64,000 nucleotides of DNA from an uncultured Nitrospirales bacterium (GTDB lineage Bacteria; Hydrogenedentota; Hydrogenedentia; Hydrogenedentales; GCA-2746185), in contig CAYXRK010000004.1 of NCBI GenBank assembly GCA_964467615.1, positions 2,961-66,960 on the forward strand. Reading direction: 5' to 3'. This document shows positions 39,601 through 54,143 of the stretch, in pieces; positions within the stretch are counted from its first letter, which is position 1, and every line of letters begins with the position of its first letter. The notes under the pieces are model-generated. The model saw only the letters and a list, made by a program, of their open reading frames with translations, did not search any database and was not told where the DNA came from. A program made the translations under genes and the position numbers.

Positions 39601-40083
39601 TCCCAAGGTTATCTGTTGACACGCGTCGAGGGATATCCAACGCATATTTCTCATCTTATTGGTTATAGTGAGTTCTCCTTGGCTCCGAATCCCGCCTATT
39701 TTGGGCAATGAATCTCCCGGGAGAAACAATGGGAATTATCGCTTTAACTCCCTTGTGGGCAAGCCAGCGCGGAAAACAAGGATATTTTGAGAGTCTGAGT
39801 GACGAAGGCGTGTAAGGAGATGCATGAAATCCCCTTCATTTTAAGCTTTTCTTGACGACAAGGGAGTCAACTGGATAATGCCCGAAACAATAGTCTCCGC
39901 ACTTTCCGGTTTATCGTAGAGATATCAGTTGAAACGTATTTTGAGAACTGAGAACAAGTCTTTGCGAACGATGACTGGTGACGAATCATAGCGGGACTTC
40001 TGTGCCGCCAAGATGGCGACGGTACGAAAGACGGCGCATTTCGTTTGATGGGGCGCTGCACATCGGCCGTCGCGCAAAAAGGC

Positions 40084-40097
40084 CTCTATATATAGAG
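40084..40097. repeat. perfect 14-bp TA-rich palindrome
   Basis: ctctatatatagag flanked by ggc/cc, inside a ~700-nt non-coding low-GC stretch; resembles the core of the AT-rich element at 31467-31517. Confidence 0.5.
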
Positions 40098-40304
40098 CCA
40101 AGCGTGTTGACCTGAAATTTCGAAAACGGGCAGCAAGCATTGGGGGTTTTGGAGATTTTCGTGGGTCCGCAGATGACGCGGATGGACGCAGATGGATGGG
40201 ACGGAACGCGGCTTCTCGCGTGGCCGAGAGAGTTAATGCTGATGGACGCCGGGCACCGGCATGGCCCACAATAGAACGATGGTTTCGTCTATGGTGGGGC
40301 GGTC

Positions 40305-40704
40305 ATGACGATTGGCGATCTGGCGAAGGCGGCGGGGGTGAGGGCTTCGACGGTGCGGTTTTATGAGCGGGCAGGGGCTGCTTGAACCGGCTGGGCGAAG
40401 CGAGGGGAATTACCGGTTGTACGGGGAGGAGTCGCTGGAGCGGCTGCGGTTTATTCGGGCGGCGCAGGACGCGGGGTTTACGTTGCAGGACGTAACGGGG
40501 TTATTGGATTTACGCGACGGGAAATCCGCGCCGTGCGCCGAGGTGCGGGGGTTGGTGGAAGCGCGATTGCTGCAACTGGAGACGCGGCTGCGGGAGTTGC
40601 GCGAGGCGAAGCGGACGCTTGAGGGTTTGGTCAAGGTGTGCCGTGAGGCGGCGGATCCAGAGCATTGCCGGGTGATTGAGCAGCTTGACGGGCGGAGGCG
40701 GTAG
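40305..40704 (+). pseudogene. MerR-family (metal-responsive) transcriptional regulator, disrupted by +1 frameshift
   Basis: ATG at 40305 encodes the HTH (MTIGDLAKAAGVRASTVRFYERAG) then hits TGA. The rest (LLEPAGRSEGNYRLY...CAEVRGL...KVCREAADPEHC) continues in the +1 frame (ORF 40363..40704). Extra G in the run at 40374-40377. Confidence 0.6.
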
Positions 40705-40806
40705 GGAGTTCGATTTTGTGCTTGACCTTGCACCTTGGTTCAGGGTGTAGGCTTTGCGTGTCGGATTTTTAGAGGCGTCGCCAGACGGTGAACGGAGGAC
40801 AGTTCC

Positions 40807-41448
40807 ATGAGTAGCATTCGGATGGTTGTTGCAGGATTCGCGGCTGTCGCCGCAGTGACGATTGGAGCACGGGCGCAAGAAGTCTGTTGCGAGGGATGCA
40901 AGATTCCCGTCAGGTCGAGTCTTGAGCTGTCGGCGACAACGGTGCAAGACACGTGGGACGCGGCGCGATTCGGGAACCGGGTGAGCCCGATTAGCGGCAA
41001 GCCGGTATCGCGCGAGCATTACGTCGAATTCGCCGACGCGGAGCGTACGCTGTACGGCCGAGTTTACGTCGCGGATGCGGGGGAACGGATCGCGGCGGAG
41101 ATGGTGGGCGCGGAGAAGCTGTACCGCAGAGTGTATTTGGGCAGCGAGGACGCGGAGATTACACAGGCGGTGCTTGAACTGAAGAACACGTTTTGTCCGG
41201 TGTCGGGCGTGGGCGCGAAGGAAGGGCAGGAGCTGGCGATTGATCCCACGATGGCGACGAACTGCACGGCTGGCGGATGTTCCGTCGGGGACGGTTTCGG
41301 CCTGACGTACAACGGCATCCGGATTCGGACGTGTTGCCCGTCGTGCGGGAAGATGTTCGCGAAAACTCCGGAGAAGTTTACGGTGAATCTGCAAGAGTTG
41401 TTTGCGGCCGCGACGCGGCCGGCGAAGAGCGGCGTCGATACGGACTGA
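40807..41448 (+). CDS. secreted Cys-rich protein (possible metal-binding, YHS/TRASH-like)
   Basis: 213 aa; signal peptide MSSIRMVVAGFAAVAAVTIGARA; Cys pairs CCEGC, FCPVSG, TCCPSCGKMF. Confidence 0.5.
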   Translation: MSSIRMVVAGFAAVAAVTIGARAQEVCCEGCKIPVRSSLELSATTVQDTWDAARFGNRVSPISGKPVSREHYVEFADAERTLYGRVYVADAGERIAAEMVGAEKLYRRVYLGSEDAEITQAVLELKNTFCPVSGVGAKEGQELAIDPTMATNCTAGGCSVGDGFGLTYNGIRIRTCCPSCGKMFAKTPEKFTVNLQELFAAATRPAKSGVDTD

Positions 41449-41530
41449 ACGGGCCGATCGATATAGAAATAAACCGCGCACCCGGTGGTGGGCCGGATGC
41501 GCGGGGGTGGGTGGGGATTGGTTGGAGGCG

Positions 41531-42226
41531 TTATTCGCGCTTGAAGGTGAAGTCGACTTTGGCTTCGGCGTCGGCGATGGTGATTTGTTGTTCCATGTAG
41601 CCGAGGCGTTCGTGCCATGCTTTTAGCGTGTAGGCGCCGGCGGGGACGTTTTTGATTTCGTAGTTGCCGGCGGCGTCGGTGACGGCGAAGAAGGGGTGCG
41701 GGAGGACGAAGGCGTAGCTTTGCATCCAGGGGTGGATGTCGCATTTTATTTTGAGGGCCTCTTCGACGATGGTGAATTCGCGGGTGCGGGGTTCGCTGCC
41801 GGCGGGTTGGCCGAAGTTGAAGGCGCGGTTTTTGGTGGCGAAGCCGCGGACGTTGTGGGTGGTTTCGTCGCCGTTGCGCACCGCGAGTTGCTGGCCGACG
41901 AGAATGCCGAAGACGTGGGGTTCGTAGCGGCAGCCTTTTTGGTCGAGGACGACGGGCTCGGCAGGCGCGGGATATTCTTTTTCCGGGGGATTGGCGATGA
42001 ACACGAAGATGTGTTGGAAGCCGCCGTCGTCGCCGATGACGGCGGCGTCGGAGAGGAGCGGCTCGGTGGCGTGTAAGCGCTTGCACACGGCGTCAGCGCC
42101 CGTGTCCAACACTTGGCGTTCGGGTTTTTGGCCTTCGAACTTGACGAGTCCTTTGACGGCGGCGTCGGACCATGCTGCGCCTGCGGCGATCGTGGTGATG
42201 AGCGCGCTTGCGAGTAGATGTTTCAT
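41531..42226 (-). CDS. cupredoxin-like / carboxypeptidase-regulatory-like domain secreted protein
   Basis: ORF 41531..42319; ATG at 42226 with AGGAGA RBS; signal peptide MKHLLASALITTIAAGAAWS; type-1-copper-like CDIHPWM motif; C-terminal DAAGNYEIKNVPAGAYTLKAW prealbumin-like segment. Confidence 0.55.
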   Translation of the reverse strand: MKHLLASALITTIAAGAAWSDAAVKGLVKFEGQKPERQVLDTGADAVCKRLHATEPLLSDAAVIGDDGGFQHIFVFIANPPEKEYPAPAEPVVLDQKGCRYEPHVFGILVGQQLAVRNGDETTHNVRGFATKNRAFNFGQPAGSEPRTREFTIVEEALKIKCDIHPWMQSYAFVLPHPFFAVTDAAGNYEIKNVPAGAYTLKAWHERLGYMEQQITIADAEAKVDFTFKRE

Positions 42227-42559
42227 GGGGTCTTTCTCCTGTGCATTTGGTTCGGGTGTTGCCGTAAGACGACGTACTGGCCAGCGAATCTGGCGTCGAA
42301 AAGTCGCAAACTCTCGCACAACGGGGCGATCGGGATCAATTGTCGTTGAGCGCGGAGACGCCAGCGTAGGACTTTAACCCGCAGTGATGGAAGGAGTGCC
42401 GTAGAGTGGGGAGCGGGATTTCGTATCGTTGCGGGGGCTTCTTGTTGACGCGCATGGGCTGGAAGCCCATGCCACGACGACGAGGGAGTGTCTTGATTAG
42501 CGCGTTGGGTGCGGCGTGTGGCAGAATGGCGGAACTGCGCCTACGAATCGGGGGATGTC

Positions 42560-42731: not shown

Positions 42732-43550
42732 TTAGGCGGACGGGACGGACCGCCGCAGTTCGATGACTCTCTCGCGTATTTGATCGGCGAGCGCAGCGCG
42801 GTCTTGCGTTGCGGGGAGTATCGGTTCGCCGAAGACGATTTCGGCGTCGAGGTTGCCCAGGCCGATGAGACGCCAAAAGTGCGGGCCGAAGACGTGGTCG
42901 GTCTTCCAGTAAGCGACGTCTTCGGCGAAATCCATGTCGGGACGAGTGAGGCGATACTGAATTCCGACGGGGACGATGGGGGCGTTTGCGTCGAGGGCGG
43001 CTTGGAGCATTGCGCCGCGAAAGGGCAGGAGTTCCTCGCCGCCGGTGGTGGTGCTTTCGAGAAACACGCAGACGCGGTGTCCGCCGCGAAGGCGCTCGGC
43101 GACGCCTTCGATGGCGACGATAAGCCCGCGGGTCTTGCTGCGCGGCACGCCGACGGTTTCAGAAACGCGAAGTAGGTAGCCGATCACCGGCCAGGACTCA
43201 ATTTCCAATTTGGCGACGAAGAACGTGTTGACGATCGAGCCGAGCGCGATCATGTCGATGTAGCCGGCGTGGTTCGGGGCGAGCAGGACGCCGGGCGGGG
43301 GCATCGGGCCGGAGACGCGGACCTTCATTCCCAGCACGTGCCGTCCGCCGAGGAACCATTGGCGTGTCCAGTACGTCGCGGCGAAGCGTTTGGCGTTAAC
43401 CGTCCGCGCGAGGAAGCGGCCAATGAGGACGCCGGAGAGCGCCCACGCGGTACAACCTAGAAAGGCGATGAAGCGCAGGCTGGCGACTATCGGACTGGGG
43501 ACGGCCCGGCGCACCGTTGCTGAGGAAGGCCCGACTTCGGTAGTGCTCAC
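42732..43550 (-). CDS. olsA: lyso-ornithine lipid O-acyltransferase OlsA (PlsC-family)
   Basis: 272 aa; acyltransferase HX4D motif NHAGYID; immediately downstream of and overlapping the olsB-like gene. Confidence 0.7.
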   Translation of the reverse strand: MSTTEVGPSSATVRRAVPSPIVASLRFIAFLGCTAWALSGVLIGRFLARTVNAKRFAATYWTRQWFLGGRHVLGMKVRVSGPMPPPGVLLAPNHAGYIDMIALGSIVNTFFVAKLEIESWPVIGYLLRVSETVGVPRSKTRGLIVAIEGVAERLRGGHRVCVFLESTTTGGEELLPFRGAMLQAALDANAPIVPVGIQYRLTRPDMDFAEDVAYWKTDHVFGPHFWRLIGLGNLDAEIVFGEPILPATQDRAALADQIRERVIELRRSVPSA

Positions 43551-44386
43551 TTCACCACGTCCAAGGGGGAAAATTGCACCTGATGGCCGTCCATCAATAT
43601 TAAGAAATCGACGGTGCCGAAATCGCGATCGATGGCGGGGCCGGAAATGACCTTCGCGCCAAGACGCATGTAGGTCCTGAATAACTTTGGCAGCCGGATC
43701 GCAGCGCCGATTTCGAGGTCAAATTCGCGTGAAGCGTCGCCGCACGACGCGACGGGATTGGCGGGCAAGAGGAGGTCGTCGTGGAGGAACCCCTGCTCGC
43801 GGATCGTTTTCATGGCGCGCCAGCCGTCGTCCGGATCTTGCGTGGTGAGCGAGCAGCAGCCGAAGACATATTTCTGGCCGTAGGCGTTCATATAGGCGCC
43901 GATGCCTAACAAGAGTGAGACGAGCGCGGGGAAAGTTCGGTGGTCCTTGGCGAGGCTGGCTCGGCCCGTTTCGACGGACCGGTCGAAATACGGCGAGAAG
44001 TCGGTAAGGTCGTATTCGAGCGCGCTGTAGAGCCCCCGCCTCTCGAGACCGTGGCGGACGGTCTGGATTCGGTAGGTGCCGACGACGCTGCCACTCTCCT
44101 GATCGAGGAGGACCACGTGGGTCATCTGGTCGTCGAACTCATCGCGGTCGAGTCCGGTAACAACGGAACCGGCGAGTCCCTCATCGAGCTCGATATTGAA
44201 CACTTCGTAACGCAGGCGTTGTGCGGCCTCGATACATCGTTTGGAATTGGCGAACCCGGCGATGTATTTGGCGGTTTGAAAGGGCGGCAACGTCAGGACG
44301 TCGGCATCGCCGCGGCGTTGCTTGAAATCCTCCGCGCCTTGAAAGGACGCGACGGACATCCGCGTATCGGTGGATCGAATCGGCAT
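43547..44386 (-). CDS. olsB: ornithine N-acyltransferase OlsB (GNAT-like, hemolysin-like acyltransferase family)
   Basis: 279 aa; OlsB-family features (ALVSLLLGIGAYMNAYGQKYVFGCCSL); olsB-olsA gene order. Confidence 0.7.
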   Translation of the reverse strand: MPIRSTDTRMSVASFQGAEDFKQRRGDADVLTLPPFQTAKYIAGFANSKRCIEAAQRLRYEVFNIELDEGLAGSVVTGLDRDEFDDQMTHVVLLDQESGSVVGTYRIQTVRHGLERRGLYSALEYDLTDFSPYFDRSVETGRASLAKDHRTFPALVSLLLGIGAYMNAYGQKYVFGCCSLTTQDPDDGWRAMKTIREQGFLHDDLLLPANPVASCGDASREFDLEIGAAIRLPKLFRTYMRLGAKVISGPAIDRDFGTVDFLILMDGHQVQFSPLDVVK

Positions 44387-44404
44387 CGGGTCTCCCGGGG
44401 ACCG

Positions 44405-46048
44405 TTACTTGGCACTAGGATAGTGCCTGGCGACGCGATGATACAGCAGAACGTCCTTGAGGAACTGGACCGGGCCGAGGGGCTGGACGCCGCGGCGGCG
44501 GTTGGCGTCGCCGATGGCGAAGAGGACGCGGAATTGCTCGAAGAGGGTGCGGTATGCGTCGGCGAGTTGGGCCTCGGGGTCCCAGATGTGGGTGGATTCG
44601 GCGGCTGCGCCGTTGATTTCCACGATGGTGAACGCCTCCCCCCGCCGAAGCTCCTCTTCGCTCGCGTAGCGTAAGTCGAAGCGGCCAAAGAAAAAGCCGG
44701 GGACGGCGCGGGCGATCTCGTCGATTCGCCGTTCCAATTCGGGCGAATGGAGATGAACACCGTCGCGGAAGATGCAGCCTTGCTTGTGGTTTCCGGCGAA
44801 GACGAGCGGAAACCGTTTGCCGTTGTCGAGCACGTGGTCGAGTTCGTCGGCATGCCGGGCGAAGTACATTTTTTTCATCAGTGCGGCGCGGGGGTCGATC
44901 GCGATGAGATGGCGCAGACTGTTCACGCCGTCGCCGGTTACGTGCGGGAAAGTCTTGTGCGTAATCGACGTGATCCGTCCGCGTTCCTCGTCGGGGAACC
45001 GGTAGTACATCAGGCCGACCTCGTTTGGATACTCGACGAGGCGTTGCAGACAAATCGTCTCGCCGGCGGGAAACGCGGCGAGATAGGCTTCGAGTTCGGC
45101 GCGCGTCCGGACGGGTTGCACGCCGACGCCGCGTTGGCCGCGATCGGGCTTCGCGACAAAGGAAAAATCGATGCCCGCTGCGGCGAGCGCCGTGAGGGCG
45201 GCGTCGGCCATTTGCGCGGGGGCTCCGTCGGCGGGGCGATCAAAGGCGACATGCGGCGCGATCCATTTCGTGCGGATATCGTCCGCCACCATGGAGAGAA
45301 TCTCGCACTTCGACTCGCGGATCATGCCTCCGGAATAGATGCTCGGGTTGGCAGCGGTAGGCAGCGTCAGGCTGCGATGCTTGAGGGCGAGCCAGAAGTA
45401 GTACACGGCGACGGGCGCGTAGAAAACCGCCGGCGGCCAGAACTCGAACACGGAGGCGATGGGTCGTTCGGACACCGGCTCCTCGCCCATGCGCTTGACG
45501 GAACGGTATTGGACGAGCGCGAAGAACGCGATCATGGCGACGAAAATCGGCCACTTGTAGGGGCCGACGTAGGGGAGCAGCATCTCCCCCACTTTGCTGA
45601 CCGAACTCAGCACGAGCAGCGTCCACACGAACGATGCCATGAACGCCAGCGTCAGGAACCGCAGCGGCGAGGCGTGAGTAATTCCCGCGCCCAGATTGGT
45701 CGGCAACCGCAGGCCGGGTATGAAGCGGGACACGAACACCGCCGCGACAAGGTTTCGTTCGAACCAGGCGCGGGCGCGATCGATTCGGCGTTGCGACACG
45801 AGGCCCCAACTAATCGTCCTGGGGCCCACAAGCCGGCCGATCGCGTAGAGCCCGCAATCGCCAACGCCGATGCCGATCGTCAGGCTGATGAACGCGGTCA
45901 TATAGAACATGCTGCCGTCGGCGACGAGCAAACCGCAGGCGACAATGGTCGTGTCTTCGAGGATGAAGGTACACAACGCGGCGACCACGCCTTGCAGCGG
46001 GGGGCTTTCCTGGAGCGTCGTGAGCGCCGTTGTGATCCATTCGTTCAC
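44405..46048 (-). CDS. DedA/VTT-family membrane domain fused to ATP-grasp domain protein
   Basis: 547 aa; N-terminal ~200 aa polytopic DedA-like (FIPGLRLP); C-terminal ATP-grasp signatures (FFGRFDLRY...FTIVEINGAAAES); 18 nt upstream of olsB, overlaps NRDE gene by 4 nt. Confidence 0.65.
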   Translation of the reverse strand: MNEWITTALTTLQESPPLQGVVAALCTFILEDTTIVACGLLVADGSMFYMTAFISLTIGIGVGDCGLYAIGRLVGPRTISWGLVSQRRIDRARAWFERNLVAAVFVSRFIPGLRLPTNLGAGITHASPLRFLTLAFMASFVWTLLVLSSVSKVGEMLLPYVGPYKWPIFVAMIAFFALVQYRSVKRMGEEPVSERPIASVFEFWPPAVFYAPVAVYYFWLALKHRSLTLPTAANPSIYSGGMIRESKCEILSMVADDIRTKWIAPHVAFDRPADGAPAQMADAALTALAAAGIDFSFVAKPDRGQRGVGVQPVRTRAELEAYLAAFPAGETICLQRLVEYPNEVGLMYYRFPDEERGRITSITHKTFPHVTGDGVNSLRHLIAIDPRAALMKKMYFARHADELDHVLDNGKRFPLVFAGNHKQGCIFRDGVHLHSPELERRIDEIARAVPGFFFGRFDLRYASEEELRRGEAFTIVEINGAAAESTHIWDPEAQLADAYRTLFEQFRVLFAIGDANRRRGVQPLGPVQFLKDVLLYHRVARHYPSAK

Positions 46049-46821
46049 GAAACCGCCTTAGCTGAACCGGCAAGAGCTTCGTCGTTGAGGGCGATGGATT
46101 CCGTGGCGTGCGGGGCCTCGGAACGCGGCGTTGGCCGGGCCCAATAGCGCATCTCGACGCGGTGGTCACGGTAGTTCAGCCGAACCTGCGTAATGCTGCG
46201 CGTGGAGGACCACTCGCGCCGCATCAGGGGAGAGCGGTCCTCGTGGCCGGCCTCCTGTATCAGGTGGAAGTCCGGGAGTGTGCCCTTGCGCAAGGCGCCT
46301 TCGCGGAGCCATTGGGCAAACCTGTCTTCGCGCCATTGAGTCACGTCTTGGCTGTCCCAGCCTGACGAAGAATAGACGTACCATTCGCCCTTGACGGTTT
46401 CAGTCTCGATGCCGCCGTTGCGTCTCCAGATGAAACGCGAAGAACCTTCGGGCCAAACGACATGGACGGAGAACGACGGATATCGGGCGGGGTCAAAGAC
46501 GTTGAAAAGCCAATCGATTCCCGTCTTCGCGGGCCCGCGCTGAAGCAGGTTGGGAATGATATCTCCGCGGGTTGGGAGGGGATGTTTGGGATCGGGGAGG
46601 AGGCTCTCGCCGGGCATATACATATTCAGAAGGCAGGCGATGACACCGTGTTCGTTCGCACCCATCCAGGTGCCGCCGCGTTCGCTGTCCTTCGGGGCAA
46701 CCCAACGGGGCGGGCCGTCGTGGACGATCGGCGGAAACTCGGAGGCACGCGAGATCAATTCGTCGCGATTGAACGTGACGAGTACCTCTTTGGCGGAATG
46801 GTGAATCGAAACGGTACACAC
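46045..46821 (-). CDS. NRDE-family protein (TANGO2 homologue)
   Basis: 258 aa; N-terminal CTVSIHHSAKEVLVTFNRDE motif that names the NRDE/DUF833 family. Confidence 0.8.
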   Translation of the reverse strand: MCTVSIHHSAKEVLVTFNRDELISRASEFPPIVHDGPPRWVAPKDSERGGTWMGANEHGVIACLLNMYMPGESLLPDPKHPLPTRGDIIPNLLQRGPAKTGIDWLFNVFDPARYPSFSVHVVWPEGSSRFIWRRNGGIETETVKGEWYVYSSSGWDSQDVTQWREDRFAQWLREGALRKGTLPDFHLIQEAGHEDRSPLMRREWSSTRSITQVRLNYRDHRVEMRYWARPTPRSEAPHATESIALNDEALAGSAKAVS

Positions 46822-46922: not shown

Positions 46923-47396
46923 CTAGACTTTTACCGAATCCTTGGATGGGCGCAGACCGTAGAGCGTGAGCAACAGCGCCACCATAATGGTCACGCCGCA
47001 CACCATAAGGGTGTTCGTAACCAGCGCGCTGTCTCCGCCGTTTGGCGGTGGGAATTTTTCGGTGAGCGTCGGCATAAGCTTCGAAGACGCCCCGATGAAG
47101 GCGGCTGCAACACCCGCCGCGCCATTGGTCCATGTGCCAATTTGAAGCATTGCGAACCAGACCTTCAGCGCATTCGAATTTAGACGCAGTTCCTGAACCA
47201 GGAAGCCGAAAGCGACCATCAAAACACCATTCGCGGTAAATTCGATGTGGGCCATCACGATGCCGCGGAACCACTGCACGGCGGACGGTGGAATAAACCC
47301 GACGGCGCAGCCGACTGTAATCTGCAGGACCCCCAGCAGCAGGATCCAACGTTTGAGTGTTGCTTTCAAGTTGTCGATGTCGGTTGTCATAAGCAA
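46923..47396 (-). CDS. hypothetical integral membrane protein
   Basis: 157 aa with 4 hydrophobic helices; no family recognised. Confidence 0.5.
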   Translation of the reverse strand: MLMTTDIDNLKATLKRWILLLGVLQITVGCAVGFIPPSAVQWFRGIVMAHIEFTANGVLMVAFGFLVQELRLNSNALKVWFAMLQIGTWTNGAAGVAAAFIGASSKLMPTLTEKFPPPNGGDSALVTNTLMVCGVTIMVALLLTLYGLRPSKDSVKV

Positions 47397-47441: not shown

Positions 47442-48026
47442 TTAGGCCGTCGCGGCGCGGTGGGCGGCGGTGGAGAACGCGAGCGTCAGTTCCTCGCGGA
47501 CTTCGACGCCCAACTCGCGGGCGAGTTGACCCACGACGGCGAGGTGATGGATGGCGTGACTCGAAAGGAACACGAGTTCGCGGCCGAAGGTCGAGTCGAG
47601 CTCCGCAACGGTGCCGTCCGGCGAAACGTATTGGACGACCTTGACCGGCTTGGCAAGGGCGGCGTTCGACACTGCGGCGAGACGGCGCGTAACATCGTCG
47701 AGCGCCTGCCGGAACGCATCGACGTTAGTCTCGAGGCGCAAATCGCGCGCGCGGGCGTCGTATTCGAAGCGGCCAGTCGCCATGCCGTTGACGAAGCATT
47801 GATAGTGTTCGAGGCAATGGCGGAGATGTTCGCCGATCGTTCCGGAGTGGCCGATGGGCGCGGAGAAGCGGTCCTCGCCTACATCATCGAGGAACTCAGA
47901 TATGCGGCGGCACGTCTCGAGACACCCGGCGACGGGCGCGGGTACACCGGGATAGATGGGATGGATCATTGGACGCTGGATCCCTACGAGAAACGGATTT
48001 ATTTCCGAGTATGGCCAGTCTAACAC
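47442..48026 (-). CDS. DinB/YfiT-like (DinB_2) metal-dependent protein
   Basis: 194 aa; His triad pattern HSGTIGEHLRH ... HAIHH typical of the DinB_2 four-helix-bundle family; start may be ATG at 47969. Confidence 0.65.
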   Translation of the reverse strand: MLDWPYSEINPFLVGIQRPMIHPIYPGVPAPVAGCLETCRRISEFLDDVGEDRFSAPIGHSGTIGEHLRHCLEHYQCFVNGMATGRFEYDARARDLRLETNVDAFRQALDDVTRRLAAVSNAALAKPVKVVQYVSPDGTVAELDSTFGRELVFLSSHAIHHLAVVGQLARELGVEVREELTLAFSTAAHRAATA

Positions 48027-48125: not shown

Positions 48126-49034
48126 CTACTCGGACTTCGGAATCAACAACCAGCCACCTTGTCTTTCGATAGGTTCACCTCTGTCGGGCTTGAGTTGGAG
48201 ACTCCAAAAGATGATCACTTCCGTTTTTTTGAGGGCTTCCGCGAGTCCGGGGAAAGACTTCTCCAAAATGATTTGCTCAGCCATTTTCTCGCCAGGCTTC
48301 AACTTGACCAGTGTCTTCGTAGGATCTGCACGGACTAGCGTTTGGGCACCAAACCTGGGAATCGTCCCAATTAGCAACATGCGGTACGACCCGCTCCACG
48401 GCTGCGAGAGGTCGTAGTCTTCGATGGGCCTTTCAAGGTTGGACTCTAGGCGGATATACAGAGTTGCCGGGTGCGCTGAATGCTCTAGGTGGACCTCTAT
48501 CGCTGTATTCGCCATCGTGGTATCTTTGAGGTTTCTAAAGATTAGCCATATGGCGTAGGGGACTAGCGCCGCTAGTATGAAGTCAGAGCGGCACTCCCTC
48601 CACATCCAGCCCAAGATGCCGGACCAAAAGCCCGTGAAGAGGAACGGGAGGAACATATCTCGAAGTCTGTCCCGAGGCCTTCCGATTTCACCTCCCCCTA
48701 TTGCATTCAAGTATTTCTTGTAGACCCAGCTGCGACGTAGATACTGGTCTGAGAGCGGCTTCATGCGTATTGGGAGGCGCTCGACGCTGAAAAACCAGTT
48801 GATCCCGACGACTATTCCCATGACGGCCAAGATCGGTCGAAGCGAGCCGTCTAGGTCGGTTTTTTCGGAAATCGTCACGAACGCGGTTAACAGGATAGTT
48901 TGTGCCAGCAAGAAGAGATTTTGCCGAGTATGGAGAAGGTTGTCGGCATGTTGATAGTAGTCCCAGGCCTCCTTGATGTCTTCCTTTGAGGGATTTGCAG
49001 AATTTGTGGGCTTTGCGGCCATGATTGTCTCCAA
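48126..49034 (-). CDS. hypothetical multi-TM protein with C-terminal soluble domain (lower-GC patch)
   Basis: 302 aa; N-terminal helix, two TM hairpins (LFLLAQTILLTAFVTI / ILAVMGIVVGINWFFSV, then MFLPFLFTGFWSGILGWMW / FILAALVPYAIWLIF), ~140-aa C-terminal domain; GC ~50%. Confidence 0.55.
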   Translation of the reverse strand: METIMAAKPTNSANPSKEDIKEAWDYYQHADNLLHTRQNLFLLAQTILLTAFVTISEKTDLDGSLRPILAVMGIVVGINWFFSVERLPIRMKPLSDQYLRRSWVYKKYLNAIGGGEIGRPRDRLRDMFLPFLFTGFWSGILGWMWRECRSDFILAALVPYAIWLIFRNLKDTTMANTAIEVHLEHSAHPATLYIRLESNLERPIEDYDLSQPWSGSYRMLLIGTIPRFGAQTLVRADPTKTLVKLKPGEKMAEQIILEKSFPGLAEALKKTEVIIFWSLQLKPDRGEPIERQGGWLLIPKSE

Positions 49035-49418
49035 TCTCTGCTGATACTAGTCAGCACAGCGCGGATGGTCAACGGGGCGCTCGGTCGGAAGCCTAACAAT
49101 TCTTGTTTTCAACTTGGTTGATACACTTCTTTTGTGGTTCATTGGCGGTCGCTCTGTTGAAAGGTTTCATTCTTTCGCCCCTATGGGGCTTGAATTAAGC
49201 GGGCGCACAGGAATCTTGGCGCTTACGCACCAAGCTACAATGCTGTCGTGCCTACAGCGCTTAGGATTTCAACAGAGCGTTAGAGACTCATTGGGAATCT
49301 TGTGGGGACTGGTTCCACCCGATCCCTACCTGCCGTTTTCGCGGCGGGTGAGCGGAACCATTTTCCGCGCGGCGCTGCGGTTGCGGGAGGCGGCGGCGGG
49401 CCGGTATTATTTGATGCG

Positions 49419-49517: not shown

Positions 49518-50180
49518 ATGGTGAAGTCGTATGTATTGGCCTTTTCGGCGGCGGTGGCCGCTTCATTCGGGGCGGCGACCGCCCAGGACAAGGTGGAATT
49601 GAAGTTCGAATTGCCGCAACCGTATTTCGGCGGGACGCCGCTGGACTACTTCGGCGAGAACCTGGAGAAGCCGGACTACAAGCCGCGTCCGCCGTTCATG
49701 GCGCCGGCGGGGACGACGAACGTCGCCAAGGGCAAGACGGTGACGGCGAGCGGCGGGCCGGAATTCGGGAAGCTCGAATTGCTCGTGGACGGGGACAAGG
49801 GCTACAAGAAGGACAGCCTGATCGGACTTCCGGCAGGCCATCAATGGGTGCAGATCGATCTCGGCGCGACGCACGAACTTTACGCGTTGCTGTTGTGGCA
49901 CTTTCACGAAGGCGAGCGCGTGTACTTCGACGTGGCGGTGCAGGTGTCCGACGACCCGAAATTCGAGAAGGGCGTGACGGTGGTCTGGAACAACGACCAC
50001 GACAACTCGGCCGGGTTGGGCAAAGGGGACAAGCAGGAATACATTGAGAGCTACAAGGGCAAGCTGATCGACATGGGCGGCGCGAAGGGGCGATATGTGC
50101 GGCTGTATTCGAAGGGCAACACAACGGACGAGACGAATGAATACGTCGAGGCCGAGATTTATGGCAGGCCGGCGAAGTAG
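49518..50180 (+). CDS. secreted F5/8 type C (discoidin) domain protein
   Basis: 220 aa; signal peptide MVKSYVLAFSAAVAASFGAATA; ...WVQIDLGATHELYALLLWHFHEGERVYFD... typical discoidin/galactose-binding-like fold. Confidence 0.65.
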   Translation: MVKSYVLAFSAAVAASFGAATAQDKVELKFELPQPYFGGTPLDYFGENLEKPDYKPRPPFMAPAGTTNVAKGKTVTASGGPEFGKLELLVDGDKGYKKDSLIGLPAGHQWVQIDLGATHELYALLLWHFHEGERVYFDVAVQVSDDPKFEKGVTVVWNNDHDNSAGLGKGDKQEYIESYKGKLIDMGGAKGRYVRLYSKGNTTDETNEYVEAEIYGRPAK

Positions 50181-50290: not shown

Positions 50291-51871
50291 ATGCCCGGGC
50301 CGCCGCGCGTGACTCCATCGTGGGAACGCGCCGCGGCCCGCGCTGTTTTTGCGGTGGCACTAATCGTTGCGGCGGCGTTCCGGCTGACGGACCTCGAGCG
50401 GCGGCCAATGCATGGCGACGAAGCAAACCAGGGGGTCAAGGCGGGCGCGCTGCTCGAACGCGGCGAATACCGGTACGACCCGAAGGAGCACCACGGGCCG
50501 ACGTTGTACTACGCGGCGCTGCCTATCGCGTGGGCGCGCGGACAACATTCGCTCGCGGAATTGGACGAGGTATCGCTGCGGCTCGTGCCGGCGCTGTTCG
50601 GCATCGCGACGGTCGCGCTGATTTGGACGCTGCGCGGGGCGATCGGCGAGTTGGCGGCGGCGATGGCCGCGCTGTTGACGGCGCTGTCGCCGGCTTTCGT
50701 TTACTACAACCGGTATTTCATCCAGGAATCGCTACTCGTATTCTTTATGGTCGCCGCGCTGTCGGCTGGATTGCGCTACGCCACGCGGCCCGGGTATGCG
50801 CCCGCGTTGGCGTTCGGCGTGGCGTTAGGATTGGCGCATGCCACGAAGGAGACGGCTGCGTTGGTGATTATGTGCGGGGTCGTCGCTGGGGGTATCGTCT
50901 GGTTTTTGGGCCGAGGCGGCAGCCGAGGGCGGCTGCCCCACATAACAACACCACGAAATCATGCGCTGGCTGCGGTACTAGCCGCGGCGTGTTGCTCGAT
51001 GCTGCTGTACTCGTCCTTCTTCACGAACCCTCGCGGCATCATCGACTCGGTCGCTACGTACGCAAATTATTTCCAACGGGCGGACGGCGCGGGGCTTCAC
51101 GATAAGCCGTGGTACTACTACCTGTCGCTGCTTGCGTATGTGCATCGCTCGCCGGGACCTTGGTGGAGCGAGGGTTTGGTCCTGGTGCTGGCAGCGGTCG
51201 GGGGCGTGGTCGCGTGGTGGAACGGCGTGAAGCAGGCGCGATTCATTGCAGTCGCGGCCGCGATTACGTTTGCCGCGTTTTCGGCCATCGCGTACAAGAC
51301 GCCGTGGAACGTGCTCTCGCCGTATCAGTTGATCGTGATTGTGGCGGGAGTCGGCGCGGCGGCGCTGATCGCCTCACTTCGCGGAAACTTGGCGAGGACC
51401 ATTGCCGCGTTAGCGCTGGCGATCGGAACAGCCCACCTGGGCGTGCAAGCGTGGCGCGCGTCGTTCGAGTTGCCGGCGGACCCGAGGACGCCCTACGTGT
51501 ACGCGCATACGTCGTCAGCGTTCATGCGGTTCGCCGAACGCGCGGAAGGACTGGCCGCGGTACACCCGGAAGGCTACGCGATGCGCATCGACGTCATCCA
51601 GCCGGACGGCGACTATTGGCCGATTCCGTGGTATCTGCGGCGCTTTAGCCGGGTGGGGTATTGGCAGGACGTGCCGGAACACATCGACGCGCCGTTTATC
51701 ATCGCCGCGCCGAGCGCGTATGAAGCCGTGCGCGCGCGGCTGACGGGAGAGTACATCACGGAGACGGCGGCGTTGCGGCCATCGGTGTTGCGCGCGGTGT
51801 TTATCGAGAAGGGGCTGTGGGACGCGTATATGGCGGCGAAGGAAAAGGTTTCGTTGCCTGACGCGAATTGA
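50291..51871 (+). CDS. membrane glycosyltransferase, GT39/ArnT/PMT-like
   Basis: 526 aa, ~11 TM helices; N-terminal RLTDLERRPMHGDEANQ and DxD-like loop resemble dolichyl-phosphate-mannose / ArnT-type glycosyltransferases. Confidence 0.65.
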   Translation: MPGPPRVTPSWERAAARAVFAVALIVAAAFRLTDLERRPMHGDEANQGVKAGALLERGEYRYDPKEHHGPTLYYAALPIAWARGQHSLAELDEVSLRLVPALFGIATVALIWTLRGAIGELAAAMAALLTALSPAFVYYNRYFIQESLLVFFMVAALSAGLRYATRPGYAPALAFGVALGLAHATKETAALVIMCGVVAGGIVWFLGRGGSRGRLPHITTPRNHALAAVLAAACCSMLLYSSFFTNPRGIIDSVATYANYFQRADGAGLHDKPWYYYLSLLAYVHRSPGPWWSEGLVLVLAAVGGVVAWWNGVKQARFIAVAAAITFAAFSAIAYKTPWNVLSPYQLIVIVAGVGAAALIASLRGNLARTIAALALAIGTAHLGVQAWRASFELPADPRTPYVYAHTSSAFMRFAERAEGLAAVHPEGYAMRIDVIQPDGDYWPIPWYLRRFSRVGYWQDVPEHIDAPFIIAAPSAYEAVRARLTGEYITETAALRPSVLRAVFIEKGLWDAYMAAKEKVSLPDAN

Positions 51872-53085: not shown

Positions 53086-53105
53086 GACAGTAACCAAGTT
53101 TTGGT

Positions 53106-53246: not shown

Positions 53247-54143
53247 ATGAAGCAAACCGATTCCCAAGCGACGAATGACAAGGCTTTTATGCTCGTGAGT
53301 AAACGCTTGCGCCGATGGACGATGCGAATCGCGTTGGCGATGTTTCTAATTTTCTGGGTCGTGTACGGCATCGCGTGCCAGATGTCGGAGACGGAATTTT
53401 CGAGGCGGCCGGAGCCGGGGATGCAACTGGGCGAATACGCGACGGCGACGCCGTGGACGATTACCTATCTCTCCGGCGGCGAACCGGGGGCGCCGCGCAT
53501 CATCTACGTTCACGGCACGCCGGGGAGCGCGAGCGCGTTCGACGATTACCTCGAGCGGCCTATCGCGGGCTTCGAGGGCTTCAGCATCGACCGGCCCGGA
53601 TTCGGCGACACGCGCCCGCCGAAACCGGCGTACACGCTGCACGAGCAGGCGCTGGTCATCGGGCCGCTGTTGGTCGAGTGCGGCGGCCAGTGGCCGATCC
53701 TCGTGGGGCATTCGCTGGGCGCGCCGATCATTTGTCGCGTCGCGGCGGAGTATCCGGATCGCGTGCGCGGCCTTGTGCTGCTGTCGGGGTCGCTGAACCC
53801 GAAGGAAGAGCACATCGCGTGGTATCAGCGATTGGGCGATTTCGCATTCGTGCCGTACTTGTTGCCGCGCTGGCTGCGCAACACGAACCGCGAATTGTTT
53901 CCGATGAAGAAAGAGTTGGAGGAACTCGCGCCGATGCTCGGCGAACTACGCTGCCCAACGGTGATCGTCCACGCCAAGAACGATTCGCTTGTGCCGTTCG
54001 GAAACGTCCAGTACATGCGCGAGACGATCCCGAAGGACACGGTCGTGAAGATCGTCGAACTCGAGGACAAGAACCACTTCATCCCGTGGAACGCGGAATC
54101 GGTCGTCCGCGATGCGATTGAGGCGGTGGCGAAGGCGTCGTAA
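53247..54143 (+). CDS. alpha/beta-fold hydrolase
   Basis: 298 aa; nucleophile elbow GHSLGA, HGTPGS oxyanion region; N-terminal TM/signal segment. Confidence 0.8.
   Translation: MKQTDSQATNDKAFMLVSKRLRRWTMRIALAMFLIFWVVYGIACQMSETEFSRRPEPGMQLGEYATATPWTITYLSGGEPGAPRIIYVHGTPGSASAFDDYLERPIAGFEGFSIDRPGFGDTRPPKPAYTLHEQALVIGPLLVECGGQWPILVGHSLGAPIICRVAAEYPDRVRGLVLLSGSLNPKEEHIAWYQRLGDFAFVPYLLPRWLRNTNRELFPMKKELEELAPMLGELRCPTVIVHAKNDSLVPFGNVQYMRETIPKDTVVKIVELEDKNHFIPWNAESVVRDAIEAVAKAS

What the first reader, a model, noticed from the sequence alone, without database searches (positions are those of the whole stretch)
42732..46821. Ornithine-lipid genes olsB-olsA apparently co-operonic with a DedA/ATP-grasp fusion and an NRDE/TANGO2 homologue
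Seen: four minus-strand genes with 4-nt overlaps or an 18-nt gap: NRDE protein (46045-46821) > DedA-like membrane domain fused to an ATP-grasp domain (44405-46048) > OlsB-like N-acyltransferase (43547-44386) > PlsC-like OlsA (42732-43550, HX4D motif). Established: OlsB/OlsA make ornithine lipids; ATP-grasp enzymes ligate carboxylates to amines (amino-acid ligases); DedA proteins are implicated in lipid translocation/flipping; eukaryotic TANGO2 (NRDE family) is linked to lipid/acyl-CoA homeostasis but its biochemical role is unsettled. Inference: the operon may produce a further-modified aminolipid (e.g. an extra amino acid added by the ATP-grasp domain and flipped by the DedA part), and it offers a bacterial genomic-context clue that NRDE/TANGO2 proteins act in lipid metabolism.
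Basis: partly seen in the sequence, partly recalled or inferred. Interest (0 to 1): 0.55.

Follow-up and report, generated by a model that had tools for sequence, protein, structure and literature searches.

The report
Conserved aminolipid operon with membrane ATP-grasp ligase
A Hydrogenedentota genome carries ornithine-lipid-type synthesis genes in one operon with an uncharacterised membrane-anchored ATP-dependent ligase fused to a lipid transporter and with a relative of the human disease protein TANGO2; the same gene set recurs across many bacterial phyla, pointing to an undescribed way of modifying amino-acid lipids.

Summary
The unannotated C-terminal half of the fusion has no Pfam family. 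A profile search against PDB sequences (E 2e-7), a confident AlphaFold model and a fold search (cyanophycin synthetase G domain, GshAB, Ddl) show it is an ATP-grasp ligase with intact catalytic residues, preceded by a hydrophobic anchor helix. The linkage is not local. In 49 loci with full flanks from many phyla, DedA lies fused or adjacent in 47 and an OlsB-type gene within 6 kb in 41. A DinB-like protein (26), an alpha/beta-hydrolase (25) and TANGO2-like proteins (19) also recur. Natural fusions tie these accessory proteins physically to the ligase. Two recent reviews of aminolipids mention none of these partners and list an ATP-dependent head-group amidation whose gene is unknown. Best reading: OlsBA build an aminolipid, the ATP-grasp amidates its head group, and DedA moves it. 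The product is not established. The TANGO2 link holds only for a sub-clade: canonical Comamonadaceae TANGO2 genes sit elsewhere.

The parts
47442..48026 (-).
   Evidence: PF12867 31 bits, above the cut-off of 24.8. Homologues lie directly upstream of the TANGO2 gene or the fusion gene in other loci and within 6 kb in 26 of 49 full-flank loci. Conserved H67/H70/H74/D90/E150/H157/H160/H161. One natural DinB::ATP-grasp fusion, P0327.
46923..47396 (-). Small hydrophobic protein (157 aa) inserted between the DinB-like and TANGO2-like genes; lineage-specific, and its membership in the module is uncertain
   Evidence: ORF. No Pfam or NCBIfam hit. No homologue in any of the 83 loci at E<1e-5. Other loci have a DoxX-type small membrane protein at a comparable position.
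46045..46821 (-). TANGO2/NRDE-family protein, a putative Cys-Ntn amidohydrolase or acyltransferase
   Evidence: PF05742 E 1.4e-13. Starts Met-Cys, read from the sequence. C2 and N18-R19-D20-E21 are at least 90% conserved in 25 module-embedded homologues; these are the residues proposed as catalytic in human TANGO2 (PMC13044924). Its stop overlaps the fusion gene's start (GTGA).
45479..46048 (-). DedA/VTT membrane domain (aa 1-190 of the fusion protein), a putative lipid transporter
   Evidence: PF09335 69 bits. Nearest NCBIfam model is UptA at 56 bits, far below its cut-off of 250. Invariant E31, D32, R108, R114. Helical bundle in the AlphaFold model.
45380..45433 (-). Hydrophobic, aromatic- and Pro-rich helix (aa 206-223, FEFWPP..FY.PV..YY.WLAL) that anchors the ATP-grasp at the membrane
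   Evidence: Helix in both AlphaFold models. The motif is invariant or nearly so and is kept in standalone forms. That it is a membrane anchor is inference.
44408..45364 (-). ATP-grasp ligase domain (aa 229-547), a family with no Pfam model
   Evidence: No Pfam hit. Profile search against PDB sequences: CphA2/CphA1 G domain E 1.8e-7 to 8e-5, Ddl, L-amino-acid ligase. Model pLDDT 91, pTM 0.88. Fold search top hits 7wae, 7txv, 7ta5, 3ln6 and many Ddl, E 2e-10 to 1e-7. Invariant K105 (VAKPD), R261/D263 (GRFD), E282/N284 (VEIN), in domain numbering.
43547..44386 (-). OlsB-type GNAT N-acyltransferase (amino-acid N-acylation; specificity not established)
   Evidence: PF13444 80 bits. Best NCBIfam models are OlsB at 115 and 94 bits, well below the equivalog cut-offs of 350 and 320. 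Homologues flank the ATP-grasp in 41 of 49 full-flank loci.
42732..43550 (-). OlsA-type (PlsC family) O-acyltransferase
   Evidence: PF01553 73 bits. Best NCBIfam models are OlsA at 117 and 95 bits, below the cut-off of 300. HX4D (H94..D99) conserved. 4-nt overlap with olsB.
53247..54143 (+). Alpha/beta-hydrolase orthologous to the hydrolase that is adjacent or fused to the ATP-grasp elsewhere; here it lies 6.4 kb away on the other strand
   Evidence: E 1.2e-106 against a profile built from the locus-embedded hydrolases. PF00561 80 bits. ORF coordinates. Present in 25 of 49 full-flank loci. Natural hydrolase::DedA::ATP-grasp fusions.

Best explanation
This is a conserved, so far undescribed extension of the OlsBA aminolipid pathway, and its hub is a membrane-anchored ATP-grasp ligase. 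Shown: the genes are translationally coupled in the window; the C-terminal domain of the fusion has an ATP-grasp fold with all catalytic residues; the ligase is fused or adjacent to DedA and sits next to an OlsB-type gene across many phyla; and the DinB-like, alpha/beta-hydrolase and TANGO2-like partners recur and are each found fused to the ligase somewhere. Inferred: OlsB N-acylates an amino acid (probably ornithine or lysine) with a 3-hydroxyacyl chain, and OlsA adds the second acyl chain. The ATP-grasp, held at the cytoplasmic face by its hydrophobic helix, activates a carboxylate as an acyl-phosphate and forms an amide on the lipid head group. The most likely carboxylate is the free alpha-carboxylate of the aminolipid, by analogy with cyanophycin synthetase, RimK and glutathione synthetase, which extend the carboxyl end of their acceptor. 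The incoming amine or amino acid is unknown. The DedA domain then moves the lipid or its product across the inner membrane. The TANGO2-like Cys-Ntn enzyme, the serine hydrolase and the DinB-like metalloenzyme are accessory enzymes that process acyl, amide or head groups (trimming, transacylation or further modification). My estimates: module and hub about 0.9; active ligase about 0.85; aminolipid head group as substrate about 0.5; carboxylate-side extension about 0.3.
For: Anatomy and coupling in the window. ATP-grasp identity: with invariant K/R-D/E-x-N residues. Conserved neighbourhood: Geobacter and deltaproteobacterial MAGs and 80 genome loci. Among 49 full-flank loci: DedA 47, OlsB-type 41, DinB 26, hydrolase 25, TANGO2 19. 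Variants GNAT::ATP-grasp and PG-binding::ATP-grasp are still followed directly by an OlsB-type gene. Natural fusions: hydrolase::DedA::ATP-grasp in 6-8 cluster representatives, DinB::ATP-grasp, and TANGO2::hydrolase::DedA::ATP-grasp. Family size: 1,548 clusters at 50% identity with E<=1e-30. Literature: taurine transfer to the carboxyl group of ornithine lipid is ATP-dependent and its gene is unknown; Ser-Gly and Orn-Ser-Gly head groups exist (PMC12971839). DedA proteins are lipid flippases or scramblases (PMC10127716). Human TANGO2 is proposed to be a Cys-Ntn hydrolase acting on fatty-acid derivatives (PMC13044924).
Against: No lipid product is known for any organism that carries the module. 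OlsB and OlsA score far below the NCBIfam equivalog cut-offs, so even the base lipid is inferred. Eight of 49 full-flank loci (Myxococcota, several Alpha- and other Proteobacteria) and Glacieibacterium have the ligase without olsB within 6-10 kb. OlsB and OlsA were never found fused to the ligase. The DedA domain is nearest the undecaprenyl-phosphate flippase type and keeps both conserved arginines. Inter-domain geometry and membrane topology are unresolved (pTM 0.69). The 80 loci are the closest relatives of the window protein, so the percentages may overstate the linkage for the whole family. I could not test whether Gluconobacter, the producer of the taurine-amidated lipid, has the family (one search was uninformative).
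Confidence: 0.5

Rival explanations
1. The ATP-grasp and the alpha/beta-hydrolase form an OlsH/OlsI-like acylation couple. The ligase would attach a (hydroxy)fatty acid ATP-dependently to an amine (for example the delta-amino group of ornithine lipid, or a free amino acid), and the hydrolase would act as an O-acyltransferase. The result would be extra acyl chains or an OlsB-independent aminolipid.
For: The third ornithine-lipid pathway uses an ATP-dependent amide ligase (GH3 OlsH) plus an alpha/beta-hydrolase O-acyltransferase (OlsI) (PMC12493201). Here the hydrolase is the partner most often fused to DedA::ATP-grasp. Myxococcota loci have the fusion, the hydrolase and a YHS protein but no olsB.
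Against: From general knowledge, ATP-grasp enzymes are not known to activate long-chain fatty acids; that is the role of adenylate-forming enzymes. The nearest structural relatives all ligate amino-acid or peptide carboxylates. OlsB and OlsA are co-encoded in most loci, which would make a second N-/O-acylation pair redundant unless it acts on another position. I did not test whether the hydrolase is homologous to OlsI.
Confidence: 0.13
2. The module is an aminolipid turnover, repair or stress-response system rather than a biosynthetic extension. The esterase and the Ntn amidase would dismantle or remodel aminolipids, and the ligase would re-ligate or salvage components. Alternatively it builds a redox-active (thiol-bearing) lipid used under metal or oxidative stress.
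For: Two hydrolase-type enzymes (serine hydrolase, Cys-Ntn) are hub partners. DinB-fold enzymes include thiol S-transferases (general knowledge). Secreted YHS-domain proteins are in 18 of 49 loci. DoxX, peroxiredoxin, MsrB, DsbD and cytochrome c peroxidase are neighbours in Geobacter and Glacieibacterium. A MerR-type metal regulator and a TRASH-domain protein lie just downstream in the window. Glutathione synthetases are among the closest folds.
Against: The tight translational coupling is with the biosynthetic genes olsB and olsA. The redox neighbours are not conserved across phyla. No thiol-synthesis genes recur.
Confidence: 0.12
3. The DedA::ATP-grasp protein works on an undecaprenyl-phosphate-linked or peptidoglycan precursor (a Ddl/Asl-type ligation plus carrier-lipid flipping). 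Its proximity to olsB would then reflect only co-regulated envelope remodelling.
For: The DedA domain is nearest UptA and keeps E31/D32 and R108/R114. Ddl enzymes are strong structural matches. Some public records name the standalone protein D-alanine--D-alanine ligase. One variant carries a weak peptidoglycan-binding domain.
Against: The UptA score of 56 bits is far below the cut-off of 250. When DedA is replaced by other domains the OlsB neighbour persists. No peptidoglycan or glycan genes recur in the loci. The partners found fused to the ligase are acyl- and amide-processing enzymes.
Confidence: 0.08
4. The adjacency is fortuitous and the genes are functionally unrelated.
For: Promoter and terminator scans give no clear operon boundaries, and no transcript data exist.
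Against: The same order recurs in at least six phylum-level groups with overlapping stop and start codons. Independent gene fusions join four of the components. By inference, a roughly 1-kb gene falling within 6 kb of a given gene in a multi-megabase genome is expected well under 1% of the time, against 84% observed.
Confidence: 0.02

Closest known systems
OlsB/OlsA ornithine-lipid pathway (Sinorhizobium meliloti type) and bifunctional OlsF
   Same: A GNAT Acetyltransf_5 N-acyltransferase followed by, and overlapping, a PlsC-type HX4D O-acyltransferase. In Acidobacteriota, Geobacter and Desulfobulbaceae loci the pair is replaced by an OlsF-like fusion of about 600 aa (Acyltransf_2 + Acetyltransf_5).
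   Different: Scores are about one third of the equivalog cut-offs, so head-group specificity is open. The genes are embedded in a larger operon with an ATP-grasp, DedA, TANGO2-like and DinB-like partners that neither the 2024 nor the 2026 aminolipid review mentions.
Cyanophycin synthetase G domain / CphA2, RimK, glutathione synthetase (GshB, GshAB) and D-Ala-D-Ala ligase: ATP-grasp carboxylate-amine ligases
   Same: The fold and the ATP/Mg2+ catalytic residues (Lys in VAKPD; GRFD; VEIN). They are the best sequence-profile and structural matches.
   Different: Only 9-20% identity, TM-score about 0.35-0.5, and no Pfam ATP-grasp model matches. The family-specific N-terminal region has a hydrophobic helix and an invariant LPTxANPSIYSGG..ESK motif. 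It is fused to DedA, lacks the cyanophycin synthetase N and M domains, and its genomic context is lipid genes.
Orphan ATP-dependent taurine:ornithine-lipid transferase of Gluconobacter cerinus (cerilipin synthesis)
   Same: The reaction class predicted here: ATP-dependent amide formation on the carboxyl group of an ornithine lipid. The gene is still unknown (PMC12971839).
   Different: No evidence that the family occurs in Gluconobacter (not testable here; one search was uninformative). The amine used by the present family is unknown. The carriers found here are Hydrogenedentota, Acidobacteriota, Burkholderiales, Sphingomonadales and others.
MprF (aminoacyl-phosphatidylglycerol synthase fused to a flippase)
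   Same: It works like this in outline: one polypeptide combines a cytoplasmic head-group-modifying enzyme with a membrane domain that translocates the modified lipid.
   Different: Not homologous. MprF uses aminoacyl-tRNA and a different flippase fold. No MprF-type domains were detected.
OlsH/OlsI pathway of Singulisphaera acidiphila
   Same: An ATP-dependent amide-forming enzyme plus an alpha/beta-hydrolase-fold partner encoded with aminolipid genes.
   Different: OlsH is a GH3 adenylating enzyme that replaces OlsB. Here OlsB is present and the ligase is an ATP-grasp.
TANGO2/NRDE family (human TANGO2, Shewanella HtpA)
   Same: Pfam PF05742; Met-Cys start and NRDE motif conserved. Fits the Cys-Ntn hydrolase proposal and the acyl-CoA binding reported for the human protein.
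   Different: A divergent sub-clade (phmmer E 0.04 to human TANGO2). It is embedded in an aminolipid operon and once fused to the hydrolase, DedA and ligase. Canonical bacterial TANGO2 genes sampled independently are not lipid-linked. No heme-related genes recur.
DedA family flippases (UptA, PetA, YqjA/YghB)
   Same: A VTT domain with conserved acidic and basic residues.
   Different: Fused to an enzyme domain not listed among known DedA fusions (rhodanese, PAP2, pyridine-nucleotide oxidoreductase; PMC10127716). It scores far below the UptA cut-off.

Membership tests
ATP-grasp superfamily | Three-domain ATP-grasp fold | tested here: met
   AlphaFold model pLDDT 91.3, pTM 0.88. Fold search: 396 PDB matches at E<=0.001, and all 50 listed are ATP-grasp enzymes.
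ATP-grasp superfamily | ATP-binding Lys with Gly-rich loop, Arg/Asp, and the E-x-N Mg2+ ligands | tested here: met
   K105, G109, R111, G112, R261, D263, E282 and N284 are invariant in 22 sequences. They align to the VKP...G.KG.GV and EIN motifs of CphA2. GRFD...VEIN located.
ATP-grasp superfamily | Match to a curated ATP-grasp Pfam or NCBIfam family | tested here: not met
   No Pfam family at E<10. NCBIfam gives only cyanophycin synthetase at 14 bits against a cut-off of 850. It is therefore a new family within the superfamily.
ATP-grasp superfamily | ATP-dependent ligation of a carboxylate to a nucleophile | not testable with these tools
   Needs an enzyme assay.
Cyanophycin synthetase (CphA1/CphA2) | N domain + G (ATP-grasp) domain + M (Mur-ligase) domain | tested here: not met
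   Only the G-domain region aligns (query 87-292). No Mur-ligase or Cyanophycin_syn domains.
DedA/VTT family | PF09335 above the gathering score | tested here: met
   69.4 bits against 33.9.
DedA UptA-type undecaprenyl-phosphate flippase | NCBIfam equivalog score | tested here: not met
   56 bits against 250, and 36 bits against 300.
OlsB (L-ornithine N-alpha-acyltransferase) | Acetyltransf_5 GNAT domain, with OlsB as the best-scoring model | tested here: met
   PF13444 80 bits. NF052554 and NF052555 are the top NCBIfam hits.
OlsB (L-ornithine N-alpha-acyltransferase) | Equivalog-level score and ornithine specificity | tested here: not met
   115 bits against 350, and 94 bits against 320. Specificity cannot be read from the sequence.
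OlsA (lyso-ornithine-lipid O-acyltransferase) | PlsC-type domain with HX4D, adjacent to olsB | tested here: met
   PF01553 73 bits. H94..D99 conserved in 29 homologues. 4-nt overlap with olsB.
OlsA (lyso-ornithine-lipid O-acyltransferase) | Equivalog-level score | tested here: not met
   117 and 95 bits against a cut-off of 300.
TANGO2/NRDE family | PF05742 above the gathering score | tested here: met
   52.1 bits against 22.6.
TANGO2/NRDE family | N-terminal Cys directly after Met, and the NRDE motif | tested here: met
   GTG-TGT start read. C2, N18, R19, D20 and E21 are at least 90% conserved in 25 module homologues. The fusion P0377 also starts MCTVT.
TANGO2/NRDE family | Biochemical activity (amide hydrolysis or transacylation, acyl-CoA or heme binding) | not testable with these tools
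   The function of the family itself is disputed.
DinB superfamily (DinB_2) | PF12867 above the gathering score; conserved His metal ligands | tested here: inconclusive
   31.1 bits against 24.8. Six conserved His residues, but which of them form the metal triad was not modelled. The PDB sequence search gave only spurious TALE-repeat hits.
MprF-type synthase-flippase | Homology to the MprF synthase and flippase domains | tested here: not met
   No such domains in Pfam or NCBIfam scans. The resemblance is in architecture only.

The most novel reading that the evidence does not exclude
The module makes a class of membrane lipid not yet described: an acyloxyacyl aminolipid whose head group is extended ATP-dependently by an amine, an amino acid or a thiol-bearing residue. 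The module-embedded TANGO2-like enzyme would be an amidase or transacylase acting on N-acyl-amino-acid lipids. That would assign a gene family to orphan head-group ligations (the taurine-ornithine and Ser-Gly type) and would give the first concrete substrate class for a TANGO2-family protein.
Probability: 0.22. Interest if true: 0.85.

Novelty: new variant of a known kind. Interest (0 to 1): 0.68.

Why it matters
Aminolipids are predicted in about half of sequenced bacteria and affect stress tolerance, antimicrobial-peptide resistance and host immunity. Yet the enzymes that extend their head groups and the proteins that move them across the membrane are unknown. The 2026 review states that the ATP-dependent taurine transferase gene is unidentified, and it names no transporter. 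This module supplies a large candidate enzyme family (1,548 clusters at 50% identity) that is invisible to Pfam-based surveys. It gives the first genomic link between a DedA transporter and aminolipids, and it is a compact, cloneable gene set that can be tested by heterologous expression and lipidomics. It also places a TANGO2-family protein in an operon, and once in a single polypeptide, with enzymes that act on fatty-acyl amide and ester lipids. TANGO2 is the gene mutated in a severe human metabolic disorder, and its biochemical role is disputed. This is independent, testable support for the proposal that it is a Cys-Ntn hydrolase acting on fatty-acid amides, although only a bacterial sub-clade shows the linkage.

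Tried and rejected
1. A look-up of the window's own fusion protein in the contig index found nothing. The source organism was inferred from named 90%-cluster members instead.
2. Single-sequence Pfam and PDB searches of the C-terminal domain gave nothing or only marginal hits. A profile and a structure model were needed.
3. An Rfam scan for a riboswitch that might name the ligand found none, only a sub-threshold sRNA-like hit.
4. Promoter and terminator scans did not exceed the shuffled expectation and do not define the transcription unit.
5. A PDB sequence search with the DinB-like protein returned only spurious TALE-repeat matches.
6. I tried to see whether Acetobacteraceae or Gluconobacter carry the ligase, using a profile of alphaproteobacterial members. 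The top 120 were Sphingomonadales and Rhodobacterales, so the result is uninformative.
7. I tested whether TANGO2 is generally linked to aminolipid genes. This was rejected: 3 of 3 canonical Comamonadaceae NRDE genes lie between mfd and a HAD phosphatase.
8. The full-length model did not fix the inter-domain geometry or topology (pTM 0.69, disordered linker).
9. Many apparent conserved neighbours in the six-frame clustering were antisense shadow ORFs of high-GC genes and were discarded.
10. I considered horizontal acquisition, but the region shows no compositional break.

Full report
OBSERVATION. The junctions read from the sequence are as follows. The TANGO2-like stop and the fusion start share GTGA. 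An 18-nt spacer with a GGGAGA motif precedes the olsB ATG. olsB and olsA overlap by 4 nt. The TANGO2-like gene starts GTG-TGT, that is Met-Cys. Pfam and NCBIfam confirm TANGO2 (PF05742), a VTT/DedA domain in the first ~190 residues of the 547-aa protein, an OlsB-type GNAT and an OlsA-type PlsC acyltransferase. The OlsB and OlsA scores (about 115 bits) are far below the NCBIfam equivalog cut-offs of 300-350, so the head-group amino acid is not established. Base composition shows no break across the region. The source is a Candidatus Hydrogenedentota MAG.

THE UNANNOTATED DOMAIN IS AN ATP-GRASP. The C-terminal 352 residues match no Pfam family even at E<10, and as a single sequence they match PDB entries only marginally. 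A profile of 22 homologues (A1) matches the ATP-grasp (G) domain of cyanophycin synthetases CphA2/CphA1 (E 1.8e-7 to 8e-5) and, more weakly, D-Ala-D-Ala ligase and an L-amino-acid ligase. An AlphaFold model is confident (pLDDT 91.3, pTM 0.88). Its best PDB neighbours are cyanophycin synthetase, GshAB glutathione synthetase and many Ddl enzymes (E 2e-10 to 1e-7). The catalytic signature is invariant: Lys in VAKPD with a Gly-rich loop, GRFD, and VEIN as the E-x-N Mg2+ site. Before the core lies an invariant aromatic- and Pro-rich hydrophobic helix (FEFWPP..FY.PV..YY.WLAL) and a family-specific LPTxANPSIYSGG..ESK motif. Both are kept in standalone versions. I infer a membrane anchor that places the substrate-binding lobe at the bilayer surface. 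The full-length model is confident within each domain but not between them (pTM 0.69, disordered linker at 189-200), so topology is unresolved.

THE LINKAGE IS CONSERVED AND THE MODULE IS LARGER. The domain defines a big family. There are more than 2,700 hits among 90% clusters, nearly all ~550-aa DedA fusions. There are 559 confirmed matches in species-representative genomes, and 1,548 clusters at 50% identity with E<=1e-30. A Geobacter MAG has TANGO2, DoxX, an OlsF-like gene, a cytochrome c peroxidase and a YHS protein upstream of the fusion, and a deltaproteobacterial MAG has an OlsF-like gene directly upstream. I searched the window proteins against six-frame ORFs of 83 loci and clustered all ORFs de novo. 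Both gave the same picture. Hydrogenedentota, Sumerlaeota, MAGs labelled Nitrospirales and some Acidobacteriota keep the order DinB-like > TANGO2-like > DedA::ATP-grasp > OlsB > OlsA, often followed by an alpha/beta-hydrolase. Other Acidobacteriota, Geobacter and Desulfobulbaceae replace OlsB and OlsA with an OlsF-like fusion. Burkholderiales have a divergent olsB, then hydrolase > DedA > ATP-grasp as separate genes > DinB > YHS > a second DinB-like gene. Counts for the 49 loci with at least 4 kb on both sides:
- DedA, fused or adjacent: 47
- OlsB-type gene within 6 kb: 41 (84%)
- DinB-like: 26
- alpha/beta-hydrolase: 25
- TANGO2-like: 19
- PlsC-type OlsA: 19
- YHS protein: 18
In the window the DinB-like gene is 47442-48026, separated from the TANGO2-like gene by a lineage-specific 157-aa membrane ORF. 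The hydrolase orthologue is at 53247-54143 on the other strand (E 1e-106 against the hydrolase profile). Variant architectures keep the OlsB neighbour: GNAT::ATP-grasp > OlsB > OlsA and PG-binding::ATP-grasp > OlsB.

NATURAL FUSIONS. Among the 150 best cluster representatives the architectures are: DedA::ATP-grasp 86 (plus 3 with a second weak DedA match), ATP-grasp alone 51, hydrolase::DedA::ATP-grasp 6 (plus 2 where DedA was not detected), DinB::ATP-grasp 1, and TANGO2::hydrolase::DedA::ATP-grasp 1. The last is P0377 (1,121 aa), which starts MCTVT...CNRDES, so the Ntn cysteine is at the free N-terminus. Every accessory partner is therefore covalently joined to the ligase somewhere, which makes the ligase the hub. 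OlsB and OlsA were never found fused to it.

PARTNER ACTIVE SITES. In 25 module-embedded TANGO2-like proteins, C2 and N18-R19-D20-E21 are at least 90% conserved. These are the residues proposed as catalytic in the 2026 crystal-structure paper, which argues that human TANGO2 is a Cys-Ntn hydrolase acting on fatty-acid derivatives (PMC13044924). DinB-like proteins keep six His residues. OlsA keeps HX4D. The DedA domain keeps E31/D32 and R108/R114, and its nearest NCBIfam model is UptA, far below cut-off.

LIMITS OF THE LINKAGE. Eight of the 49 full-flank loci (Myxococcota and several Alpha- and other Proteobacteria) lack olsB within 6 kb. The cultured Glacieibacterium frigidum has YHS > a DoxX-like protein > DedA > a 418-aa protein > ATP-grasp and no olsB within 10 kb. 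As an independent control on the TANGO2 claim, I used a canonical, human-like NRDE protein found beside the module in a Rhodoferax contig as a query. In 3 of 3 long Comamonadaceae contigs its relatives lie between mfd and a HAD phosphatase, with no lipid genes. The TANGO2-aminolipid association is therefore a property of a sub-clade.

LITERATURE. Full-text searches found no paper that joins ornithine lipids or aminolipids with DedA, ATP-grasp or TANGO2. The 2024 and 2026 reviews list three synthesis routes (OlsBA, OlsF, OlsH/OlsI) and five modifications, and they mention none of these partners. The 2026 review states that taurine transfer to the carboxyl group of ornithine lipid is ATP-dependent and that the gene is unknown, and it notes Ser-Gly and Orn-Ser-Gly head groups. 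The DedA-subfamily survey lists fusions only to rhodanese, PAP2 and pyridine-nucleotide oxidoreductase domains. The ATP-grasp fusion would have been invisible to it, because the domain has no Pfam model. Papers on bacterial TANGO2 report no lipid-gene context. Public records name the standalone ligase hypothetical protein, D-alanine--D-alanine ligase or RimK-like.

MECHANISM. Shown: the operon anatomy, the ATP-grasp identity with an intact active site, the conserved neighbourhood and the fusions. Inferred: OlsB and OlsA build an acyloxyacyl aminolipid. The membrane-anchored ATP-grasp forms an amide on its head group through an acyl-phosphate. The most likely target is the free alpha-carboxylate, because the closest relatives (cyanophycin synthetase, RimK, glutathione synthetase) extend the carboxyl end of their acceptor. 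Ligation of a small carboxylate to the side-chain amine is the alternative, with a precedent (from general knowledge) in the ATP-grasp D-aspartate ligase that modifies the lysine side chain of peptidoglycan precursors. DedA translocates the lipid. The Cys-Ntn, serine-hydrolase and DinB-like partners trim, transacylate or further modify it. Rivals are an OlsH/OlsI-like extra acylation couple, a turnover or redox-stress system, and a role with carrier lipid or peptidoglycan. Chance adjacency is excluded.

VERDICT. I rate it a new variant of a known kind: an aminolipid gene cluster with an undescribed ligase-transporter hub. Interest is moderately high because a simple expression and lipidomics experiment would decide it.

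Noticed in passing
window 40363-40704 (+) and 40807-41448 (+): A MerR-family metal-responsive regulator (best models ZntR/MerR/CueR) is followed by a protein with a weak TRASH metal-binding domain, 1.3-2.4 kb downstream of olsA. Secreted YHS-domain (metal-binding) proteins recur inside the module in Burkholderiales, Geobacter, Sumerlaeota and sphingomonads, which hints at a metal-stress connection.
   Followed up: partly
L008:3695-5599, also L010, L014, L016, L017, L019, L020, L040: In several Hydrogenedentota and Acidobacteriota loci, a ~640-aa membrane protein with a ferric-reductase-like transmembrane domain plus a Rieske [2Fe-2S] domain sits directly upstream of the DinB-like gene. It is absent from the window.
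   Followed up: partly
window 46923-47396 (-): A 157-aa hydrophobic ORF with no family match and no homologue in 83 related loci is inserted between the DinB-like and TANGO2-like genes. Geobacter and Glacieibacterium have DoxX-type small membrane proteins at comparable positions.
   Followed up: partly
window 49215-49261 (+): A sub-threshold match to the Acido-Lenti-1 sRNA family (23.5 bits against a gathering score of 37, E 0.07), in the intergenic region upstream of the F5/8-type-C gene.
   Followed up: no
window 49518-50180 (+) and 50291-51871 (+): A secreted F5/8-type-C (galactose-binding-like) protein is followed by a GT-C/PMT-family (ArnT-like) membrane glycosyltransferase. This is another envelope-modifying gene pair next to the aminolipid module.
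   Followed up: no
L070:2566-3324, and L061, L064, L069, L072: Some Burkholderiales loci carry a second, human-like canonical TANGO2 (MCLIAW...ANRDEFYTRP...GGTWLG) within a few kb of the module. In Rhodoferax contig L070 it directly follows the DinB-like gene. In other Comamonadaceae the same protein type sits between mfd and a HAD phosphatase.
   Followed up: yes
L088:1339-9765: In Rhodoferax sp. U2-2l the canonical NRDE gene lies just downstream of two cyanophycin-synthetase-like genes, an ABC transporter and a DUF1854 gene. This may be coincidental.
   Followed up: no
window 40000-42500: Unusually strong positive GC skew (0.27-0.30) compared with 0.05-0.15 in the rest of the region, together with long Arg/Pro-rich shadow ORFs.
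   Followed up: no
window 51907-53097 (-) and 48126-49034 (-): An AAA_14 + DUF4143 ATPase lies between the glycosyltransferase and the alpha/beta-hydrolase. A 302-aa membrane protein with a weak 8xMP match lies upstream of the DinB-like gene. Neither recurs in the related loci.
   Followed up: no
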